64,000 bases of DNA from an uncultured Actinomycetes bacterium (GTDB lineage: Bacteria; Actinomycetota; UBA4738; HRBIN12), in the NCBI GenBank assembly GCA_963816425.1, contig CAWFKP010000006.1:272278-336277 (forward strand). The letters are read 5' to 3'. The notes beneath the pieces are model-generated. The model was not told the origin of the DNA. It did no database searches and worked only from the letters and a program-made list of their open reading frames with translations. Each line of letters starts with the position of its first letter. Positions within the stretch are counted from its first letter, which is position 1. The position numbers and the translations under genes were made by a program. Positions 11,374 through 21,655 of the stretch are shown here, piece after piece.

Positions 11374-13437
11374 ATGGCACGCGGATCATTGCTGCGCACG
11401 CGAGCTCGCGGCTTCGTGATGCTCGCGGCCGTCCTCGCCCTGGGGAGCTGCTCCGTGCAGTCGCAGGGGATCGGCGAGACGGTCGCGATGATCCCGGGAT
11501 ACGCGGGCGGCGGAGCAGCTCCGAGCGGGCCGCCGATCCAGGGCTACGACGCGCCGATCCCCGTCATCCAGGTCGGGCTTTCCGAGACCGACGCCACCCA
11601 CATGGCGATCGACCTGTCCCAGCCCTTTGCCCCCCAGGGCAAGGTGTCGTTCCTCGTGACCAACAACGGGGCCAAGAAGCACGAGTTCGTGGTGCTTGCC
11701 ACCGACACCGCGGCGGCTTCCTTCCCGATCGTGAGCTTCGAAGGTGAGGCCAACCGGATCGATGAGGACGCCAAGGGTGTGACCAACGTCGGGGAGACAG
11801 GCGACATGGAACCGGGTGCGGTGATGATGCTGACCTTGGACCTGGCCCCGGGCCACTACGCCGTGGTCTGCAACCTCCCCGGGCACTACGCGATGGGCAT
11901 GCACCAGGACTTCTTCGTCACGCCCACCGCCTCCACGCCGGTCAGCGTCGGGCTGTCCGAGACCGACGCCACCCACATGGCGATCGACCTGTCCCAGCCC
12001 TTTGCCCCCCAGGGCAAGGTGTCGTTCCTCGTGACCAACAACGGGGCCAAGAAGCACGAGTTCGTGGTGCTTGCCACCGACACCGCGGCGGCTTCCTTCC
12101 CGATCGTGAGCTTCGAAGGTGAGGCCAACCGGATCGATGAGGACGCCAAGGGTGTGACCAACGTCGGGGAGACAGGCGACATGGAACCGGGTGCGGTGAT
12201 GATGCTGACCTTGGACCTGGCCCCGGGCCACTACGCCGTGGTCTGCAACCTCCCCGGGCACTACGCGATGGGCATGCACCAGGACTTCTTCGTCACGCCC
12301 ACCGCCTCCACGCCGGTCAGCGTCGGGCTGTCCGAGACCGACGCCACCCACATGGCGATCGACCTGTCCCAGCCCTTTGCCCCCCAGGGCAAGGTGTCGT
12401 TCCTCGTGACCAACAACGGGGCCAAGAAGCACGAGTTCGTGGTGCTTGCCACCGACACCGCGGCGGCTTCCTTCCCGATCGTGAGCTTCGAAGGTGAGGC
12501 CAACCGGATCGATGAGGACGCCAAGGGTGTGACCAACGTCGGGGAGACAGGCGACATGGAACCGGGTGCGGTGATGATGCTGACCTTGGACCTGGCCCCG
12601 GGCCACTACGCCGTGGTCTGCAACCTCCCCGGGCACTACGCGATGGGCATGCACCAGGACTTCTTCGTCACGCCCACCGCCTCCACGCCGGTCAGCGTCG
12701 GGCTGTCCGAGACCGACGCCACCCACATGGCGATCGACCTGTCCCAGCCCTTTGCCCCCCAGGGCAAGGTGTCGTTCCTCGTGACCAACAACGGGGCCAA
12801 GAAGCACGAGTTCGTGGTGCTTGCCACCGACACCGCGGCGGCTTCCTTCCCGATCGTGAGCTTCGAAGGTGAGGCCAACCGGATCGATGAGGACGCCAAG
12901 GGTGTGACCAACGTCGGGGAGACAGGCGACATGGAACCGGGTGCGGTGATGATGCTGACCTTGGACCTGGCCCCGGGCCACTACGCCGTGGTCTGCAACC
13001 TCCCCGGGCACTACGCGATGGGCATGCACCAGGACTTCTTCGTCACGCCCACCGCCTCCACGCCGGTCAGCGTCGGGCTGTCCGAGACCGACGCCACCCA
13101 CATGGCGATCGACCTGTCCCAGCCCTTTGCCCCCCAGGGCAAGGTGTCGTTCCTCGTGACCAACAACGGGGCCAAGAAGCACGAGTTCGTGGTGCTTGCC
13201 ACCGACACCGCGGCGGCTTCCTTCCCGATCGTGAGCTTCGAAGGTGAGGCCAACCGGATCGATGAGGACGCCAAGGGTGTGACCAACGTCGGGGAGACAG
13301 GCGACATGGAACCGGGTGCGGTGATGATGCTGACCTTGGACCTGGCCCCGGGCCACTACGCCGTGGTCTGCAACCTCCCCGGGCACTACGCGATGGGCAT
13401 GCACCAGGACTTCTTCGTCACGCCCCAGGCGGCATAG
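11374..13437 (+). CDS. lipoprotein with five tandem cupredoxin (type-1 copper) domains
   Basis: LALGSCS lipobox. Five 125-aa repeats each with H(EF)...C-N-L-P-G-H-x-x-M-G-M ligand pattern of blue-copper sites (KHEFVV...VVCNLPGHYAMGMH). Confidence 0.8.
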   Translation: MARGSLLRTRARGFVMLAAVLALGSCSVQSQGIGETVAMIPGYAGGGAAPSGPPIQGYDAPIPVIQVGLSETDATHMAIDLSQPFAPQGKVSFLVTNNGAKKHEFVVLATDTAAASFPIVSFEGEANRIDEDAKGVTNVGETGDMEPGAVMMLTLDLAPGHYAVVCNLPGHYAMGMHQDFFVTPTASTPVSVGLSETDATHMAIDLSQPFAPQGKVSFLVTNNGAKKHEFVVLATDTAAASFPIVSFEGEANRIDEDAKGVTNVGETGDMEPGAVMMLTLDLAPGHYAVVCNLPGHYAMGMHQDFFVTPTASTPVSVGLSETDATHMAIDLSQPFAPQGKVSFLVTNNGAKKHEFVVLATDTAAASFPIVSFEGEANRIDEDAKGVTNVGETGDMEPGAVMMLTLDLAPGHYAVVCNLPGHYAMGMHQDFFVTPTASTPVSVGLSETDATHMAIDLSQPFAPQGKVSFLVTNNGAKKHEFVVLATDTAAASFPIVSFEGEANRIDEDAKGVTNVGETGDMEPGAVMMLTLDLAPGHYAVVCNLPGHYAMGMHQDFFVTPTASTPVSVGLSETDATHMAIDLSQPFAPQGKVSFLVTNNGAKKHEFVVLATDTAAASFPIVSFEGEANRIDEDAKGVTNVGETGDMEPGAVMMLTLDLAPGHYAVVCNLPGHYAMGMHQDFFVTPQAA
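11563..13437 (+). repeat. 5 x 375-bp direct tandem repeat; copies 2-5 read as identical at nucleotide level
   Basis: Identical sequence blocks starting 11938, 12313, 12688, 13063. Identical antisense ORFs in track at 375-bp period (11886, 12261, 12636, 13011). Copy 1 differs only at its 5' end, copy 5 at its last ~12 nt. Confidence 0.9.
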
Positions 13438-13462: not shown

Positions 13463-13491
13463 TTGACACCCGGCCGCGGCGCCCGCACACT
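13463..13491 (+). promoter_or_regulatory. putative promoter (TTGACA-N17-CACACT) positioned for a leaderless transcript starting at the leader-peptide ATG
   Basis: TTGACA at ~13463-13468 and a weak -10 about 17 nt downstream; leader ATG 13501 has no SD, consistent with leaderless initiation. Confidence 0.3.
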
Positions 13492-13500
13492 GTTGTGGCT

Positions 13501-13551
13501 ATGACGAACGCAGCTGTGCTCGGACGCAGCGTCCTCGTACTTATCGCCTAG
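13501..13551 (+). CDS. ilv operon leader peptide MTNAAVLGRSVLVLIA (attenuation control)
   Basis: 16-codon ORF rich in Val/Leu/Ile codons (gtc ctc gta ctt atc) ending TAG 13549-13551 immediately before the antiterminator stem. Confidence 0.55.
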   Translation: MTNAAVLGRSVLVLIA

Positions 13552-13587
13552 GCGCGGGGGGCCCACGGGCCCGCAGACCCCCGCGCC
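13551..13587 (+). promoter_or_regulatory. antiterminator hairpin of ilv attenuator (GGCGCGGGGG / CCCCCGCGCC, 10-bp perfect stem)
   Basis: 13551-13560 pairs perfectly with 13578-13587. Shares CCCCCGC with the terminator stem, so the two structures are mutually exclusive. Confidence 0.5.
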
Positions 13588-13617
13588 AGATGCCCTCCGC
13601 CCAGCGGGGGGCTTTTT
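13578..13617 (+). terminator. intrinsic terminator of ilv attenuator (CCCCCGC...GCGGGGG followed by GCTTTTT)
   Basis: Stem 13578-13584 / 13604-13610, U-tract 13613-13617. Located between leader peptide and first structural gene. Confidence 0.55.
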
Positions 13618-13681
13618 GTATCCCGTAGCGTGCCACCGGGCCTCGACCAGCCGGGGACCCAGACAGAGAGGAGAACCACCG

Positions 13682-13999
13682 ATGCGATACGAGTTCGAAC
13701 GAGACGGCACGGTCGTCGCCAGCGTCCTGTGGGAGGGTCCCGGCCAGGTCAGCGTCGACGCGATCGATAACAGCACGCGCGCGACGGTGGACCGCTACCT
13801 CTCATCCGAGGTCGTGTACCTGGGCGGCGGGTTCGACGTCGGCGACGAGCAGGTTCCCGACGTGTTGCAGATGCGCCGGCGTGACTGGACGCCTTGGGAG
13901 TTCGAGCGGGCGTGTCGCAACCTCGCACATCGGCTGCAGGCGCAGGTGCGTCGCGTGGAGACCGGGCCCGTGGAGGCGCGCGAGGTGGTCGCGGGATGA
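13682..13999 (+). CDS. hypothetical 105-aa protein, first gene after the ilv attenuator, translationally coupled to ilvB
   Basis: Strong RBS GAGAGGAG 9 nt upstream of ATG 13682. High GC3 codon bias. Stop TGA 13997-13999 overlaps ilvB ATG 13996 (ATGA). No recognisable domain. Confidence 0.55.
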
Positions 14000-15738
14000 C
14001 GTTCAAGGGAGCGGACGCCGTTCTCAAGGCGCTCGAGCAGGAGGGTGTCGAGGTCATCTTCGGCATCCCGGGCGGCGCCAGCATGCCGATCTACGACCCG
14101 CTCGTGGACCGCTCACCGATCCGGCACGTCCTCTGCCGGCACGAGCAGGGCGCCGGACACGCGGCCGAGGGCTACGCGTGGGCCACCGGCAAGGTGGGCG
14201 TGTGCATGGCGACGAGCGGGCCTGGCGCGACGAACCTCGTCACGCCGCTGGCCGACGCGAAGATGGATTCGGTGCCGATCGTCGCGATCACCGGACAGGT
14301 GCCGACGCCGGTGGTTGGCAACGACGCTTTCCAGGAGGCGGACATCACGGGCATCACGATGCCCGTCACGAAGCACAACTTCCTGATCAAGGACGCCGCC
14401 GACATCGTGGAGACGATCCGCGAGGCGTTCCACATCGCGCGCTCGGGCCGCCCCGGCCCGGTGCTGGTTGACCTTCCCAAGGACGTGCTGAACGCCGAGA
14501 CCACCTACACCTGGCCCGAGAAGATCAACCTGCCCGGCTACAAGCCCACCACGAAGGGCAACAACCGTCAGGTGAGCGAGGCCGTGAAGCTGATCCTGGC
14601 CGCCTCGCGACCGGTGCTCTACGTCGGCGGCGGCGTGATCAAGGCGAACGCCTCCGAGGAGCTGATGCAGCTGGCGACGATCGGCAAGCTCCCGGTCGTC
14701 ACCACGCTGATGGCGCGCGGCGCCTTTCCCGACTCCCACGAGCTGTGCCTGGGGATGCCGGGCATGCATGGGAACTACACGGCGGTCACGGCGATGCAGC
14801 GCGCCGATCTGCTGGTCGCGCTCGGCTCGCGCTTCGACGACCGGGTCACGGGCAAGCTGTCGGGGTTCGCCCCGGACGCGAAGATCGTGCACGTCGACGT
14901 CGATCCGGCCGAGATCGGGAAGAACCGGTTCGTCGACGTGCCGATCGTCGGCGACTGCAAGGACGTCATCGCGAAGCTGGCCGTCGAGCTCGGCAAGCGA
15001 CAGGAAGGCGCGGGCGCGCCCGATCGGTCGGCGTGGCTCGCGCAGCTGGAGGATTGGCAGACGAAGTACCCCCTTCGCTACGGCCAGGAATCCGACACGC
15101 TGAAGCCGCAGTACTGCGTCGAGCGCCTGCGGCACTTCGCCGACGACGACACGATCCTCGTCGCGGGCGTCGGGCAACACCAGATGTACGCGGCTCAGTA
15201 CTGGCGGTTCGAGCGCCCGCGCCATTGGATCAACTCCGGTGGCCTCGGCACGATGGGCTTCGCGGTGCCCGCCGCCATGGGCGCCAAGGCGGGTCAGCCC
15301 GACAAGCGCGTGGTCGCGATCGACGGAGACGGCTGCTTCCAGATGACCGCCCAGGAGCTCGCCACCAGCAACACGGAGAAGATCCCATTCGTGACCGCGA
15401 TCTTGAACAACGGGTACCTCGGCATGGTGCGCCAGTGGCAGGAGCTGTTCTTCGACGAGCGGTATTCGGGGGTGTACCTCGATCCCGACGTGCCGAACTA
15501 CGTGAAGCTCGCGGAGGCGTACGGCGCCGTCGGTCTGCGGGTGGATTCTCCTGAGGAGGTCGACGCCGCGATCGAGAAGGCCTACGCGATCGAGGATCGA
15601 AGCGTCGTGATCGACTTCCGCACCGACCCGCGCGAGGGCGTCTTCCCGATGGTGCCGGCGGGCGCCTCGAACGACGACATCATCCTCGGGCCGGAGTTCG
15701 CGCCGCACGAGGTCCCGGGGGAGGCTCCGATCGTATGA
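13996..15738 (+). CDS. ilvB: acetolactate synthase large subunit
   Basis: [36 protein letters not shown]... ThDP-dependent AHAS family; internal ATG of track ORF 13894..15738. Confidence 0.92.
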
Positions 15739-16259
15739 CGAACTTCTTGCACACCATCTCCGTGCTGGTCGAGGACCGACCGGGCGTGCTTACCCGGATC
15801 GCCGGGCTGTTCGCCGCGCGCGGGTACAACATCGAGTCGCTCGCGGTCGGCGCCACCGAGACGCCGGGCGTCTCGCGCATGACGATCGTTGTCGACGTCG
15901 AGGACAAGCCGCTCGAGCAGGTGACGAAGCAGCTCAACAAGCTGATCAACGTGATCAAGATCCTCGAGCACGATCAGGGCTCGGCCGTCGAGCGCGAGCT
16001 GATGCTGGTGAAGGTCCGCTCCGAGGGCGACAACCGTGCGCGCATCATGGAGGTCGCCGATGTGTTCCGCGTGAACGTCGTCGATGTGACGAGCGGCACC
16101 CTGACGCTCGAGGCCGCCGGCAAGCCCGAGAAGCTGGAGGCGCTGCTGTCGCTGCTCCGTGATTTCGGGATCGTCGAGCTCTCACGCACCGGGCGGATCG
16201 CGCTCGGCCGCGGCGATCGCGGCATCAAGGACCGTTCGCTCAAGGTCGCCAACGCCTGA
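15735..16259 (+). CDS. ilvN: acetolactate synthase small (regulatory, ACT-domain) subunit
   Basis: ATGA overlap with ilv[39 protein letters not shown] typical IlvN. Confidence 0.9.
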
Positions 16260-16299
16260 GCGGTGGATCCACCCGACGCACCAGGAAGGAACCGACGAG

Positions 16300-17309
<1,010 letters not shown>

Positions 17310-17310
<1 letters not shown>

Positions 17311-19018
17311 TGACCACCGCAGACCCCGACGTACCGGGCTCAAGTAGCGAAGCGGTAGCCCGTGAGATGCACCGGGCTCAAGTAGCGAAGCGGTAGCCCG
17401 TGAAGATGCACCGGGCTCAAGTAGCGAAGCGGTAGCCCATGCAGATGCACCGGGCTCAAGTAGCGAAGCGGTAGCCCGCAAAGACGTCGTCCGGATCTTC
17501 GACACCACGCTGCGCGATGGCGAGCAGGCGCCCGGGATCGCGCTGAGCCGGGCCGAGAAGGTCGAGATCGCCGAGCAGCTCGCGCGACTGAAGGTCGACA
17601 TCCTCGAGGCCGGGTTCCCGATCTCGGGGCAGGGCGAGTTCGAGGCCGTCCGCGAGATCGCCGATTCCGTGCGCGGGCCGGTGATCGCGGCGCTCGCGCG
17701 CACCGCGACCGGCGATATCGAGCGCGCCGCCGAGGCGCTCAAGGGCGCCGAGCATTGGCGGATCCATACGTTCATCTCGACGAGCGACGTCCAGCGCGAG
17801 TCCATGTTGAAGATGAGCTACCAGCAGGTACTCGACGCCATCGAGGCGAACGTGACCCTCGCCAAGGGCTACACGGAGGACGTCGAGTTCAGCGCGCAGG
17901 ATGCCACCCGCACCGAGTTGGCGTTCCTGCTCGAGTGCTACCGCCTCGCGGTGCGCTGCGGCGCGACCACGATCAACGTGCCCGACACGGTCGGCTACGC
18001 GACCCCGACGGAGTTCGGCGAGCTGATCCGGATCGTGCGCCAGGAGGTGCCCGACGAGGTCGTGATCTCGACCCACTGCCACAACGACCTCGGGCTGGCC
18101 GTCGCCAACGCGCTGGCCGGCATCGAGAACGGCGCACGCCAGGTGGAGGTGGCGGTCAACGGGATCGGCGAGCGGGCTGGGAACTGCTCGCTCGAGGAGA
18201 TCGCGATGATCGTGCGTACCCGTCGCGCGCACCTCGGCGTCCAGCACGGGCTGAACGTCAAGGAGATCACGCGCACGTCCCGGCTGGTCGCGATGACCAC
18301 GGGCTACAGCGTGCAGCGGAACAAGGCGGTCGTCGGCACGAGCGCGTTCGCGCACGAGAGCGGCATCCATCAGCACGGGGTGCTCGCCAACCGCGCGACC
18401 TACGAGATCATGGATCCCGTCGAGATCGGGCTCGAGGGGAACCAACTGGTGCTCGGCAAGCACAGCGGGCGCCACGCGTTCGTCGACGCCCTGGACAAGC
18501 TCGGCATCACGCTGGACGACGCGGCCCTCAACCGCGCGTTCACGCGGTTCAAGGACCTGGCCGATCGCAAGGTGCAGCTGACCGACCAAGATCTGTCCGC
18601 GATCGTCGCAGAGGAGCTCGGGGCGACGGACGAGGACGCGCTGGTGCTCGAGTCGCTGCAGATGGGCGGCGGCACGCACCTCCAGCCTCGGGCCACGGTC
18701 CGACTACGCAGAGGCGAGGAGGTGATCGAGGAATCCGCGATCGGCGACGGCTTGATCGACGCGGCGATGGGGGCCATCGCGCGTGCCGCCGAGGTCGAGG
18801 GTCGACTCGCGAGCTTCCACGTGTCCGGGGTCACCGAGGGCACCGACGCGCTCGGTGACGTGGTCGTCCAGCTGGACATCGACGGTCGCCGTGTGACGGG
18901 CCGCGGAGTCGCGACCGACGTCGTCGAGGCGAGCGCCCGCGCATACCTCGCGGCGGTGAACCGCGCCCTGCAGGTCCAGGCCAAGGACGCCGGCCAGACC
19001 AACGAGGTCACGCCGTGA
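17310..19018 (+). CDS. leuA: 2-isopropylmalate synthase; 5' end disrupted by a 1-nt frame change in the first tandem-repeat copy (uninterrupted frame only from 17366; next canonical start GTG 17669)
   Basis: RIFDTTLRDGEQAPGIALS... HxH/LeuA catalytic region is in frame 2 but no ATG/GTG/TTG lies between stop 17363-17365 and the RIFDTTLRDGEQ box. ATG 17310 overlaps ilvC stop (TGATG) and would be in frame if copy 1 were 39 bp like copies 2-3. Confidence 0.75.
17333..17478 (+). repeat. 38/39-bp direct tandem repeat (3 full copies + partial 4th), unit ACCGGGCTCAAGTAGCGAAGCGGTAGCCCGTGA(A)GATGC
   Basis: Copies at 17333-17370 (38 bp), 17371-17409 (39), 17410-17448 (39), 17449-17478 (partial). Encodes DAPGSSSEAVAxx 13-aa units in the leuA frame. 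Confidence 0.85.
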
Positions 19019-20069
19019 CGGACCGCTCCCACACGATCGGGGTGATCCGCGGCGACGGTACCGGCCCGGAGGTGGTCGGCGAAGGTCTCAAGGTGCTCGA
19101 CGCCGTTCGCGACTTCGACGTGACCCTCGTGGACTTCGATCTCGGCGCCGATCGATACCTGCGCACGGGGGATGTGCTTCCCGACGAGGAGCTCGCGCGG
19201 ATCGCCGAGATGGACGCGGTGTTCCTCGGGGCTGTCGGCGACCCGCGGGTGCGGCCCGGCATCCTGGAGCGCGACCTGTTGCTCAAGATCCGGTTCCAGC
19301 TCGACCAGTGGGTGAACCTGCGCCCGGTCGTGCGGTATCCGGGCGTGGCCACGCTCGTGCCGAGCCACACCGAGGACGACGTGAACTTCGTGGTGGTTCG
19401 GGAGAACTCCGAAGGGCTCTACAGCGGCGCGGGCGGCTTCCACCGGAAGGGCACGCTGCAGGAGGTCGCGGTGCAGGAATCGATCAACACGCGCCACGGG
19501 GTCGAGCGGATCGTGCGCTACGCGTTCGAACTGGCCGCTTCCACCGCTCGGCGCGGCACGCTCACGCTCGTGCACAAGACCAACGTGCTGACGTTCGCCG
19601 GCGATCTGTATCAGCGGGTGGTCGATGAGGTCGCCGGGAGTTCCCGCAGGTCCAGACCGACTACGTGCACGTCGACGCCGCGTGCATCTACTTCCTGGAC
19701 GCGCCGGGGCGGTTCGACGTCATCGTCACCGACAACATGTTCGGCGACATCATCACGGACCTCGGGGCGATGATCCAAGGCGGGATGGGCATCGCCGCCG
19801 GCGGCAATATCAACCCCGACGGCGTGTCGATGTTCGAGCCGATCGGCGGCACCGCGCCGAGCGAGACGGGCAAGGGCACGATCAACCCACTGGCCGCGAT
19901 CGGCGCGATGGAGATGCTGCTGCGCCAGTTGGGCGAGCCGGAGGCGGCCGCAAGGATCGACCGCGGCGTCCGAGCGGCGACCGGCCGGATGAAGAGCATG
20001 CGCGCGGGCGAGATGGGGTTCTCCACGGCGCAGGTCGGCGATCTCGTGGTGGAGGGCGCGACGGCATGA
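19015..20069 (+). CDS. leuB: 3-isopropylmalate dehydrogenase, frameshifted in this sequence at a G-run (~19636-19638)
   Basis: Track ORFs 19015..19773 and 19665..20069 together give a full LeuB (MTDRSHTIGVIRGDGTGPEV... / ...EFPQVQTDYVHVDAACIYFLDAPGRFDVIVTDNMFGDIITD). Restored by GGG->GGGG. ATGA overlap with leuA stop. Confidence 0.8.
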
Positions 20070-21655
20070 GCGAGGTGTCCGCCGTCCGCGTCGAGCTCTA
20101 CGACACGACGCTTCGCGACGGCGCGCAACAAGCGGACCTGTCCTACACGGTCGAGGATCGGCTGCGCATCCTGCACAAGCTCGACCAGGTCGGCTTCCCC
20201 TTCATCGAAGGGGGGTGGCCGGGCGCCAACCCGCGCGACACGGAGTTCTTCCAGCTCGCGATGAAGGAGACACTCCAGCATGCGGAGCTGACCTCGTTCG
20301 GCATGACCCGCCGCGCCGGGGAGCGAGCCGATGCGTCGCAGGCCCTGCGCGATCTGCTGGAGGCCGGCACCGAGGTGGTCTGCCTGGTGGGCAAGGCGTG
20401 GGACCTGCACGTGACCGAGGCCCTGCGCACCGACCTCGTCGAGGGCGTCGCGATGGTGCGCGATTCGGTGACGTTCCTCCGCGCACAGGGTCGCCGGGTG
20501 TTCTTCGACGCGGAGCACTTCTTCGACGGCTACCGAAGCGATCCCGCCTTCGCCATGCAGGTGATCGCCGCGGCGGAGGAGGCCGGCGCCGAACGGCTCG
20601 TGTTGTGCGACACGAACGGGGGCATGCTGCCGTTCGACATCGCGGACATCGTGCGAGCCGTCGGCGACCAGGCGTCGGCACCCCTGGGGATCCACGTGCA
20701 CAACGACGCCGGGTGCGCGGTGGCGAACTCGCTGGTGGCAGTCGATGCCGGCGTGCTCCAGGTGCAAGGCACCGTCAACGGCTACGGCGAGCGCACTGGC
20801 AACGCCGACATCGTCCCGATCACGGCCGATCTCATCCTGAAGATGGGCGTGACCGACGCGCTCCCCGACGGGTCGGTCGCGCACCTGACCGAGCTGGCGC
20901 GCTACGTCGCCGAGATCGCGAACCTGTCGCCGGAGGCGCGGCAGCCCTATGCGGGCAGATACGCGTTCACGCACAAGGCGGGGCTGCACACCAGCGGCGT
21001 CGCCCGAGTGTCCCGGGCCTACGAGCACGTCGCCCCCGAGTCGGTGGGCAACCGGCGCGGGGTGGTGGCGTCGGACTACAGCGGCGGCGCCTCGATCCGG
21101 ATGAAGGCCGAGGAGTTCGGCCTCGATCTCGGGGAGGCCGCGATCCCCGCCGCGGTCGAGCAGCTGAAGGAACGAGAGGCCCGCGGCTACACCTTCGACA
21201 TCGCGGAGGCGTCCTTGGAGCTGCTGCTCCGTCGCGCCGACGGTTGGGCGCAGGCCTTCTTCGAGGTCGAGAGCTACCGGGTCCATGTGGAGGAGCGCGC
21301 GGGCGACGAGCCCTTGGCCGAGGCGACGGTCAAGGTGGTGACCGAGGGGACGCGACATATCGAGAGCGCCGAGGGCCAGGGTCCCGTGGGCGCCTTGGAC
21401 AACGCGCTGCGGAAGGCGCTGACCAACGACTACCCGCAGCTCGACGACATGGAGCTCGAGGATTTCCGCGTCCGGGTGCTCGATCGCAGCGTGGGAACGG
21501 GCGCGGTCGTGCGCGTGCTGATCGACATGTCCAACGGCGAGGGCGAATGGACCACGGTCGGCGTGAGCGAGAACATCATCGAGGCCTCGTGGGAGGCGCT
21601 CGTGGACGGCTACACGTACGGCCTGTTGCATCCGCGGGAGCACGTGGAGGACTGA
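20066..21655 (+). CDS. cimA: citramalate synthase / LeuA-type-2 family (isoleucine via citramalate)
   Basis: ATGA overlap with leuB stop. VELYDTTLRDGAQQ...GGWPGANPRDTEFF signature of the CimA/LeuA_allo subfamily, distinct from the leuA above. Confidence 0.65.
   Translation: MSEVSAVRVELYDTTLRDGAQQADLSYTVEDRLRILHKLDQVGFPFIEGGWPGANPRDTEFFQLAMKETLQHAELTSFGMTRRAGERADASQALRDLLEAGTEVVCLVGKAWDLHVTEALRTDLVEGVAMVRDSVTFLRAQGRRVFFDAEHFFDGYRSDPAFAMQVIAAAEEAGAERLVLCDTNGGMLPFDIADIVRAVGDQASAPLGIHVHNDAGCAVANSLVAVDAGVLQVQGTVNGYGERTGNADIVPITADLILKMGVTDALPDGSVAHLTELARYVAEIANLSPEARQPYAGRYAFTHKAGLHTSGVARVSRAYEHVAPESVGNRRGVVASDYSGGASIRMKAEEFGLDLGEAAIPAAVEQLKEREARGYTFDIAEASLELLLRRADGWAQAFFEVESYRVHVEERAGDEPLAEATVKVVTEGTRHIESAEGQGPVGALDNALRKALTNDYPQLDDMELEDFRVRVLDRSVGTGAVVRVLIDMSNGEGEWTTVGVSENIIEASWEALVDGYTYGLLHPREHVED

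What the first reader, a model, noticed from the sequence alone, without database searches (positions are those of the whole stretch)
13463..13620. Leader-peptide transcription attenuator upstream of the ilvBNC-leuA-leuB-cimA operon
A 16-codon ORF (ATG 13501, MTNAAVLGRSVLVLIA, TAG 13549) is packed with Val/Leu/Ile codons in its last third. Its stop codon abuts a perfect 10-bp stem GGCGCGGGGG(13551-60)/CCCCCGCGCC(13578-87). The 3' arm shares CCCCCGC with a second hairpin, CCCCCGC(13578-84)/GCGGGGG(13604-10), followed by GCTTTTT. Mutually exclusive antiterminator and terminator with a BCAA-rich leader is the textbook arrangement for ribosome-mediated attenuation of ilv operons (known for Corynebacterium ilvBNC and enteric ilvGMEDA/ilvBN). 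A TTGACA box 33 nt upstream and the absence of an SD suggest a leaderless leader-peptide mRNA.
Basis: partly seen in the sequence, partly recalled or inferred. Interest (0 to 1): 0.55.

Follow-up and report, generated by a model that had tools for sequence, protein, structure and literature searches.

The report
Branched-chain amino acid leader-peptide attenuator
A short leader gene rich in Leu/Val/Ile codons, followed by two RNA hairpins, sits ahead of the ilv/leu biosynthesis operon and almost certainly tunes it to amino-acid supply, a known kind of switch, though its two hairpins do not compete for bases as the textbook model requires.

Summary
The sequence features exist where stated. They are a TTGACA/CACACT promoter, a 16-codon ORF ending VLVLIA-TAG, and a 10-bp stem that starts at the stop codon.

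The element recurs upstream of ilvB in 76 of 81 related loci (uncultured soil Actinomycetota and Acidimicrobiia). At least 120 soil metagenome contigs carry its core motif. Four Ile/Leu/Val codons always lie at positions -5 to -2, and they use codons that are rare in this genome (GTA, CTT). The stop is TAG in 62 of 67 elements.

The hairpin assignment is wrong. The real terminator is a self-contained hairpin at 13592-13612 plus UUUUU. It coexists with the stop-abutting hairpin (P1). Both helices covary strongly.

So this is a ribosome-position-sensing attenuator like those of M. tuberculosis ilvB1 and C. glutamicum ilvBNC, but no base-pair-competing antiterminator can be detected. How a closed P1 would suppress the terminator 0-7 nt downstream is unresolved.

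Known kind, structural variant; moderate interest.

The parts
13463..13468 (+). -35 box TTGACA
   Evidence: Read directly. Of 29 close relatives, 24 have TTGACA and 2 have TTGACG; the other 3 had no promoter call. The more distant loci have TTGNNN.
13486..13491 (+). -10-like hexamer CACACT, 17-nt spacer, 9 nt before the ATG
   Evidence: An NANNNT hexamer ends exactly 9 nt before the leader ATG in 39 of the 52 loci with a recognisable promoter. The consensus sigma-70 scan does not call it. The inferred TSS at about 13497-13501 has not been measured.
13501..13551 (+). Leader ORF, 16 codons plus TAG (MTNAAVLGRSVLVLIA*), no SD
   Evidence: Relatives encode 10-31-aa peptides with a variable N-terminus and an invariant C-terminal [ILV]4-x-stop. 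SD-like 4-mers are present upstream in only 7 of 67 loci.
13534..13545 (+). Sensor codons CUC GUA CUU AUC (Leu-Val-Leu-Ile)
   Evidence: The nucleotides CTCGTACTTAT are invariant in 25 of 26 close relatives, with one C-to-G change that keeps Leu. GUA is at this position in 73 of 76 elements. GTA is 0.6% of Val codons and CTT 5% of Leu codons in neighbouring genes.
13551..13587 (+). P1: bipartite hairpin starting at the G of the TAG stop. Outer stem 13551-60/13578-87, small apical hairpin.
   Evidence: -26.5 kcal/mol. The outer stem covaries across the two clades: all 7 pairs have compensatory changes. The arms co-evolve in the matched-versus-mismatched test.
13592..13617 (+). T: intrinsic terminator. 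9-bp stem 13592-13600/13604-13612, CCA loop, UUUUU 13613-17.
   Evidence: -17.3 kcal/mol. All 8 modelled pairs have compensatory changes and 99.7% of cells are paired. A terminator is present in the same place in 76 of 81 loci.
13682..13999 (+). Conserved 105-aa ORF of unknown function, first cistron after the attenuator. Its TGA overlaps the ilvB ATG (ATGA).
   Evidence: It has 526 homologs, all 'hypothetical', and no Pfam or NCBIfam match.
13996..21655 (+). ilvB, ilvN, ilvC, leuA, leuB, cimA: same strand, abutting or overlapping
   Evidence: NCBIfam matches. leuA and leuB show apparent frame breaks.

Best explanation
This is a ribosome-mediated transcription attenuator of a sORF-ilvBNC-leuAB-cimA operon.

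Transcription starts a few nt before, or at, ATG 13501, and a ribosome loads without an SD. The four penultimate codons (CUC GUA CUU AUC) report charged Leu, Val and Ile tRNA.

Geometry sets the state of hairpin P1, which begins at the stop codon. A ribosome stalled on the sensor codons reaches only to about 13546-13555 and leaves P1 closed. A ribosome that reaches UAG covers about 13558-13561 and holds the P1 5' arm open.

With amino acids plentiful, P1 is open and the terminator at 13592-13617 releases a roughly 117-120-nt RNA. With starvation, P1 is closed and polymerase reads through.

Shown here: the parts, their conservation, their covariation and the geometry.

Inferred: the direction of the response, by logic and by analogy with M. 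tuberculosis ilvB1, and the link from P1 to the terminator. That link is not base-pair competition. My working guess is proximity. A closed P1 abuts the terminator stem (0-7 nt away) and sits against the stalled ribosome, so it would hinder completion of the terminator stem in the polymerase exit channel.
For: Conservation:
- One element lies upstream of ilvB in 76 of 81 loci, and there is only one in the window.
- At least 120 soil metagenome contigs carry the core motif; 93 of 100 unique ones have the two-hairpin layout.

Leader peptide:
- ILV occupies residues -5 to -2 in 96-100% of elements.
- Residue -1 is ILV in only 1 of 67.
- The stop is TAG in 62 of 67.

Codons: the sensor codons are rare, and GUA is present in 73 of 76 elements.

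Geometry: in all 67 elements that passed the layout filter, P1 starts 3 nt before to 4 nt after the first base of the stop, a range the filter itself required. The terminator follows 0-7 nt after P1.

Covariation: 99.5% of cells are paired, all 15 pairs have compensatory changes, 0 of 500 shuffles reach the observed values, and sliding the partners drops pairing to about 40-63%.

Promoter and SD: the promoter-to-ATG spacing is fixed and an SD is absent.

Precedents:
- In M. tuberculosis, the ilvB1 uORF has LVVI sensor codons including GUA, a ribosome at the stop masks the hairpin, a ~120-nt RNA is made, and LVVI-to-AAAA abolishes induction (PMC13236596).
- In C. glutamicum, the TSS lies 1 nt from the leader ATG (PMC11857589).
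Against: No structure that competes with the terminator could be found.
- Terminator probability stays above 0.9 in 24 of 26 homologs under any 5' masking.
- In 93 metagenomic copies it stays above 0.9 in 95% in the stalled-ribosome state.
- No alternative pairing co-evolves.

As predicted from folding alone, then, the terminator forms in both ribosome states. The regulatory step rests on logic and analogy.

The TSS, translation of the ORF, termination and the response to branched-chain amino acids are all unmeasured.

A similar S. coelicolor ilvB leader was reported not to respond to codon mutations (cited in PMC1262725).
Confidence: 0.68

Rival explanations
1. Classical attenuator exactly. 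P1 (13551-60/13578-87) is the antiterminator. The terminator is 13578-84/13604-10 plus GCUUUUU, sharing the CCCCCGC arm.
For: The complementarity is real in the window (-15.4 kcal/mol). It wins at equilibrium in 2 of 26 homologs when the P1 5' arm is masked, and in 5-13% of metagenomic copies.
Against: The local hairpin 13592-13612 is stronger, has a 3-nt loop and does not need the shared arm, so P1 cannot prevent termination.

The proposed helix is paired in 57.5% of cells against 58.8% in shuffles, with no compensatory change.

Acidimicrobiia copies keep the same layout with terminator arms unrelated to P1.
Confidence: 0.06
2. The terminator is a constitutive partial terminator. The leader and P1 serve another purpose, such as an RNA polymerase pause hairpin that synchronises translation, or control of mRNA stability or of translation of the downstream cistrons. 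Termination itself would not respond to branched-chain amino acids.
For: Folding predicts the terminator in both ribosome states. The S. coelicolor ilvB leader codon mutants showed no effect (PMC1262725). The P1 3' end lies about 11 nt before a C-G step at 13598/13599 in the window, which resembles a hairpin pause (read).
Against: This does not explain several conserved features:
- Exactly four ILV codons of the rarest type lie at a fixed distance from the stop.
- P1 starts at the stop codon.
- The terminator follows within 0-7 nt in two deeply diverged clades.

The architecturally similar Mtb element responds through its sensor codons (PMC13236596). The pause-like C-G step is not conserved in Acidimicrobiia.
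Confidence: 0.14
3. P1 is the binding site of a trans-acting factor that modulates the terminator. The factor could be a protein, possibly the conserved small ORF product encoded just downstream, or another RNA-binding regulator.
For: The outer stem sequence GGCGCG/CGCGCC is invariant in the 26 close relatives. A conserved protein of unknown function is encoded immediately downstream.
Against: The same layout exists in Acidimicrobiia loci that lack the small ORF and carry a different P1 sequence. The P1 loops and apical part vary freely. No RNA-binding domain was detected in the small ORF.
Confidence: 0.05

Closest known systems
Mycobacterium tuberculosis ilvB1NC leader (uORF attenuator; PMC13236596, 2026)
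   Same: Both have a short uORF with four BCAA sensor codons near its end (LVVI there, LVLI here), including the rare GUA. Both have a hairpin that a ribosome at the stop codon would mask, a Rho-independent terminator, an attenuated RNA of about 120 nt, and control of ilvB-N-C.
   Different: The Mtb authors describe antiterminator and terminator as mutually exclusive folds. Here the two helices share no bases and no alternative pairing is conserved. The stop here is UAG and forms part of P1, whereas Mtb uses UGA. Here a 105-aa ORF and leuA-leuB-cimA belong to the unit. I could not obtain the Mtb sequence to test its overlap myself.
Corynebacterium glutamicum ilvBNC attenuator / ilvB-II motif (Morbach 2000 as summarised in PMC11857589; PMC10272879)
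   Same: Both translate the leader peptide without an SD from a transcript that starts next to the ATG. Both have a BCAA-rich leader and a terminator before ilvB.
   Different: In C. glutamicum the sensor codons lie mid-peptide (MTIIRLVVVTARRLP), and three overlapping hairpins act as anti-antiterminator, antiterminator and terminator, with experimentally supported overlap. The leader there is 292 nt long. Nothing in Rfam 15 matches the window's element at E up to 10.
Enterobacterial trp / his / ilvGMEDA / ilvBN leader-peptide attenuators (textbook knowledge)
   Same: All have a leader ORF with codons for the pathway's end products. Ribosome position decides RNA folding. An intrinsic terminator lies ahead of the first structural gene.
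   Different: Those elements have an SD-led leader and a 2:3 antiterminator that uses the terminator's 5' arm. Here there is no SD and no 2:3-type pairing: the P1 3' arm and the terminator 5' arm are both C-rich, with duplex energies of -3 to -5 kcal/mol whether matched or mismatched.
Predicted ilvB leader peptides with terminators in Corynebacterium, Mycobacterium and Streptomyces (Seliverstov et al. 2005, PMC1262725)
   Same: These are ILV-rich short ORFs followed by a terminator with a U-run upstream of ilvB in Actinobacteria, and their mode of regulation was noted as unclear.
   Different: There the ORFs are described as overlapping the terminator hairpin. Here the ORF ends 41 nt before the terminator, and a separate hairpin fills the gap.

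Membership tests
Classical ribosome-mediated transcription attenuator (trp/his/ilv type) | Short leader ORF enriched in codons for the regulated pathway's amino acids | tested here: met
   VLVLI at codons 11-15. ILV at residues -5 to -2 in 96-100% of 67 elements. The synonymous codons used are rare.
Classical ribosome-mediated transcription attenuator (trp/his/ilv type) | Intrinsic terminator between the leader ORF and the first structural gene | tested here: met
   Hairpin 13592-13612 plus U5. All 8 pairs show compensatory changes. Termination itself has not been measured.
Classical ribosome-mediated transcription attenuator (trp/his/ilv type) | Antiterminator helix that shares nucleotides with the terminator (mutually exclusive folds) | tested here: not met
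   P1 and the terminator coexist in every MFE. The terminator is retained under masking. No alternative pairing co-evolves.
Classical ribosome-mediated transcription attenuator (trp/his/ilv type) | Ribosome stalled at sensor codons versus at the stop codon selects different RNA states | tested here: inconclusive
   The geometry fits for P1. P1 starts 3 nt before to 4 nt after the first base of the stop, and the sensor codons lie 15 to 4 nt before the stop. The assumed ribosome reach (12-15 nt past the first P-site base) comes from general knowledge. The effect on the terminator is not shown.
Classical ribosome-mediated transcription attenuator (trp/his/ilv type) | Amino-acid-dependent premature termination in vivo | not testable with these tools
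   Needs Term-seq or Northern blots, and reporters.
Actinobacterial SD-less ilvB uORF attenuators (C. glutamicum ilvL, M. tuberculosis ilvB1 uORF) | Transcript starts at, or within a few nt of, the leader start codon; no SD | tested here: inconclusive
   The -35/-10 boxes are conserved, with the hexamer ending 9 nt before the ATG in 39 of 52 loci. SD-like 4-mers are present in 7 of 67 loci. The TSS is not mapped.
Actinobacterial SD-less ilvB uORF attenuators (C. glutamicum ilvL, M. tuberculosis ilvB1 uORF) | A few BCAA sensor codons close to the stop, followed by a hairpin that a terminating ribosome masks, then a terminator; attenuated RNA of about 120 nt | tested here: met
   [quoted passage not shown] ATG to the start of the U-tract is 92-155 nt in the 29 close relatives, mostly 110-114 nt.
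Rfam-curated ilvB-associated or leader RNA families | Match to a curated covariance model | tested here: not met
   No family matches 13463-13620, even at E up to 10.

The most novel reading that the evidence does not exclude
This would be a two-helix attenuator in which the 'antiterminator' works without sharing any base with the terminator.

P1 starts at the stop codon and ends 0-7 nt before the terminator. When closed, it would act by proximity. It would block completion of the terminator stem in the RNA exit channel. Alternatively, by looping out 24-49 nt, it would bring the stalled ribosome up against the polymerase.

That would be a steric form of ribosome-mediated attenuation, conserved across Acidimicrobiia and related soil Actinomycetota. 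If the Mtb helices are likewise only adjacent, it might also be relevant to the M. tuberculosis ilvB1 leader.
Probability: 0.22. Interest if true: 0.7.

Novelty: new variant of a known kind. Interest (0 to 1): 0.42.

Why it matters
Leader-peptide control of ilv operons is textbook, and it is already shown in Corynebacterium and Mycobacterium. The element's existence here is therefore expected and mainly improves annotation of an uncultured soil lineage.

Two things go beyond that.

First, about 170 independent copies from two deeply diverged clades keep the same layout: a sensor run, one spacer codon, UAG, a hairpin, then a terminator 0-7 nt later. None shows a competing helix. Either current folding-based models of attenuation miss something, or a proximity-based mode exists. 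Spacer-insertion and compensatory mutants would test this directly.

Second, an uncharacterised, highly conserved 105-aa protein is co-regulated with, and translationally coupled to, acetolactate synthase. That makes it a candidate new player in branched-chain amino acid synthesis.

Tried and rejected
1. Rejected as the functional helix.

2. P1 5' arm pairing with the terminator 5' arm (13554-62 is identical to 13604-12). No conservation: 49.1% of cells paired against 49.0% in shuffles.

3. Leader codons pairing with the terminator 3' arm or with the P1 arms, and a 2:3-type pairing. Matched and mismatched duplex energies are equal.

4. Extension of P1 by the last codon and stop pairing with the spacer and the first terminator bases. 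No co-evolution. An earlier version of this test was unusable because of a scoring artefact.

5. Hungry-codon frameshift carrying ribosomes through the terminator into the small ORF. This frame is open in the window, but the frame relation is not conserved: offsets 0, 1 and 2 all occur.

6. Rfam: no match.

7. Other copies in the window: none.

8. My first family scan of the small ORF used 13683 and was out of frame. I repeated it with 13682.

10. I could not obtain the M. tuberculosis or C. glutamicum leader sequences. The supplements hold only plasmid links. A literature search for upstream-hairpin effects on terminators gave nothing relevant.

Full report
WHAT IS IN THE SEQUENCE

- TTGACA lies at 13463-68.
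- ATG at 13501 opens a 16-codon ORF, MTNAAVLGRSVLVLIA, closed by TAG at 13549-51.
- GGCGCGGGGG at 13551-60 is perfectly complementary to CCCCCGCGCC at 13578-87.
- CCCCCGC at 13578-84 is complementary to GCGGGGG at 13604-10.
- TTTTT lies at 13613-17.
- A -10-like hexamer CACACT (13486-91) sits 17 nt after the -35 box and 9 nt before the ATG. There is no Shine-Dalgarno sequence.

- It is the structure found by the terminator scan. The scan gave 3 overlapping calls at this one site, against 0.7 expected.
- It appears in the minimum-energy fold of the leader, where it coexists with the stop-abutting hairpin, here called P1 (whole-leader z-score -2.0).

GENE CONTEXT

NCBIfam matches identify the following genes.
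- Upstream, a protein with repeated cupredoxin domains (11374-13437).
- Downstream, ilvB (ATG 13996 to 15738), ilvN, ilvC, leuA, leuB and a citramalate synthase, all on the + strand and abutting.

Between the terminator and ilvB lies a further ORF at 13682-13999.
- It has a good SD.
- Its TGA overlaps the ilvB ATG (ATGA).
- It is strongly conserved: MRYEFERDG... is present in 25 of 26 close relatives, and it has 526 homologs, all unnamed.
- It has no Pfam or NCBIfam match. It gives a moderately confident AF2 model and no PDB fold match.
- So the attenuated unit begins with an unknown protein, not with ilvB.

RELATED LOCI

An ilvB-based scan returned 80 loci. All are uncultured Actinomycetota. 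The nearest share 83-90% IlvB identity, and Acidimicrobiia share about 65%.

Twenty-five close relatives carry the same leader.
- The N-terminus is variable.
- The nucleotides CT[C/G]GTACTTAT (Leu-Val-Leu-Ile) are invariant, followed by one variable codon and then TAGGCGCG.
- Upstream is TTGACA-16/18 nt-NANNNT-9 nt-ATG.

The Acidimicrobiia-like loci have M...LLVVVT-TAG-type peptides about 100 nt upstream of ilvB, without the small ORF, but with the same two hairpins.

A heuristic parse finds the full layout in 67 of 81 loci.
- ILV occupies residues -5 to -2 in 96-100% of elements.
- Residue -1 is ILV in only 1 of 67.
- The stop is TAG in 62 of 67.
- P1 starts 3 nt before to 4 nt after the first base of the stop. 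The filter required this range, so it is not independent evidence.
- The terminator follows 0-7 nt after P1.
- Codon -4 is GTA in 53 of 67.
- The -10 hexamer ends 9 nt before the ATG in 39 of the 52 loci with a recognisable promoter.

A covariance model built from the close relatives finds exactly one hit per locus in 76 of 81 sources. Each hit is upstream of ilvB, and there is only one in the window.

Of 100 unique copies, 93 have the two-hairpin layout and 83 have the small-ORF start downstream.

The element tracks ilvB, not the upstream gene, which differs between loci.

SIGNS OF A TRANSLATED SENSOR
- In the window's own genes, GTA is 2 of 309 Val codons, CTT is 13 of 251 Leu codons and ATT is 0 of 128 Ile codons.
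- Yet GTA and CTT are fixed in the leader. ATT is the commonest alternative to ATC at the Ile position (ATC in 26 and ATT in 12 of the 67 elements).
- GUA is kept in 73 of 76 elements across both clades.
- Composition (ILV) rather than exact peptide sequence is conserved between the clades. This argues for codon sensing rather than a specific arrest peptide.
- SD-like tetramers upstream of the ATG are rare, 7 of 67.
- The [ILV]4-x-stop pattern occurs only twice in all six frames of the window.

RNA STRUCTURE

On the model-based alignment of 76 elements:
- 99.5% of cells are paired.
- All 15 pairs show compensatory changes.
- 182 doubly changed cells are observed, against 41 in shuffles (0 of 500 shuffles reach this).
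- Sliding the partners by 1-3 columns drops pairing to about 40-63%.
- Caveat: the alignment is fitted to the model.

The P1 apical hairpin changes sequence freely while staying self-complementary.

Alternative helices do not behave this way.
- The other conceivable alternative is the P1 5' arm pairing with the terminator 5' arm. In the window 13554-62 is identical to 13604-12. It is paired in 49.1% of cells against 49.0% in shuffles.

A matched-versus-mismatched duplex test gives the same answer.
- It shows co-evolution only for the P1 arms and the terminator arms (rank fractions 0.14-0.29).
- It shows none for any of eight alternative pairings (0.55-0.61).
- It shows none for an extension of P1 into the terminator base.

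Masking the 5' side step by step, to mimic a ribosome, leaves the terminator probability above 0.9 in 24 of 26 homologs. The minimum in the window is 0.91.

In 93 metagenomic copies:
- The terminator survives with probability above 0.9 in 95% when P1 is free to form, the stalled state.
- When the ribosome-at-stop state is mimicked, it falls below 0.5 in 5-13% of copies. That is the wrong direction for feedback control.

Equilibrium alone would be an unfair test, since trp 2:3 is also weaker than 3:4. But here the partner strands simply lack complementarity. The P1 3' arm and the terminator 5' arm are both C-rich.

MECHANISM

The geometry is the clearest clue. I assume the usual ribosome reach of about 12-15 nt beyond the first P-site base. 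This comes from general knowledge and was not tested here.
- A ribosome waiting for Val-tRNA at GUA (13537-39) extends to about 13546-49 and leaves P1, which starts at 13551, intact.
- A ribosome at UAG extends to about 13558-61 and unwinds the whole outer stem.

Three conserved features fit a design in which the open or closed state of P1 is the regulated variable: one non-ILV spacer codon, UAG with its G inside P1, and the onset of P1 at the stop.

The same logic was proposed for the M. tuberculosis ilvB1 leader (PMC13236596).
- It has LVVI sensor codons including GUA.
- A ribosome at the stop masks the antiterminator.
- It makes a ~120-nt RNA.
- It is supported by an LVVI-to-AAAA mutant.

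SD-less leader translation is established for C. glutamicum ilvBNC (PMC11857589).

I therefore conclude that a closed P1 gives read-through under starvation and an open P1 gives termination.

The step from P1 to the terminator is not explained by base pairing. My working hypothesis is an inference without precedent that I could find. It is proximity, in one of two forms.
- A closed P1 0-7 nt from the terminator base cannot follow the terminator's 5' strand into the exit channel.
- By looping out 24-49 nt, a closed P1 places the stalled ribosome against the polymerase.

In either form, completion of the lower terminator stem would be hindered.

COMPARISON AND NOVELTY

Leader peptides with terminators upstream of actinobacterial ilvB were predicted in 2005, with the mode of regulation called unclear (PMC1262725). 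They have been studied in C. glutamicum and M. tuberculosis, and BCAA-rich uORFs are proposed for other ilvB motifs (PMC10272879).

Nothing in Rfam matches this element.

It works like these systems. However, it fails one defining feature of the classical family, overlapping antiterminator and terminator. I therefore rate it a new variant of a known kind, of moderate interest.

I could not obtain the Mtb or Corynebacterium sequences to check whether their helices truly overlap.

SIDE OBSERVATIONS

These are listed under Noticed in passing.

Noticed in passing
window 13682-13999 (+): A conserved 105-aa ORF ([23 protein letters not shown]...) lies between the attenuator and ilvB. It has a strong SD, and its TGA overlaps the ilvB ATG (ATGA), so it is co-regulated with acetolactate synthase and probably translationally coupled to it. 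It has 526 homologs, all 'hypothetical', no Pfam or NCBIfam match, an AF2 model at pLDDT 75, and no PDB fold match.
   Followed up: partly
window 11572-13425 (+), inside ORF 11374-13437: A 375-bp tandem repeat, 4.9 copies at 99% identity, encodes repeated cupredoxin-like (EfeO/sulfocyanin-like) domains. Such near-identical copies suggest recent expansion or an assembly issue.
   Followed up: no
window 17333-17478 (+): A 39-nt tandem repeat (3.8 copies, 96% matches) lies between the ilvC stop (17308-10) and the conserved LeuA N-terminus (RIFDTTLRDGEQ from about 17492). An ATG at 17310 overlaps the ilvC stop, but the first repeat copy is 1 nt short, so the frame breaks at a TAG near 17394. The repeat is absent from all 80 related loci.
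   Followed up: partly
window about 19636-19670 (+): leuB is split between two frames (ORFs 19015-19773 and 19665-20069). This is an apparent frameshift, either a sequencing or assembly indel or a pseudogene.
   Followed up: no
window 13618-13625 and alignment A2 columns 129-135: A short motif is conserved just after the U-tract (T at column 131 in 63 of 76 elements, CC at columns 134-135 in 65-70 of 76; GTATCCCG in the window) across both clades. Its function is unknown.
   Followed up: no
window 13504-13538 (+): A predicted hairpin lies inside the leader coding region (AGCUGUG/CGCAGCG, codons 4-6 with 9-11). It recurs in many of the 26 close relatives (those encoding ..AV.GRS..) but not in the others or in Acidimicrobiia. 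Its 3' side touches the sensor codons.
   Followed up: no
loci L026-L080 (Acidimicrobiia-like), last sense codon of the leader: The single non-ILV codon before the stop is Thr (ACC/ACG) in 31 of 67 elements. Thr is the precursor of Ile, so it may be a fifth sensor codon there. The window has Ala (GCC).
   Followed up: no
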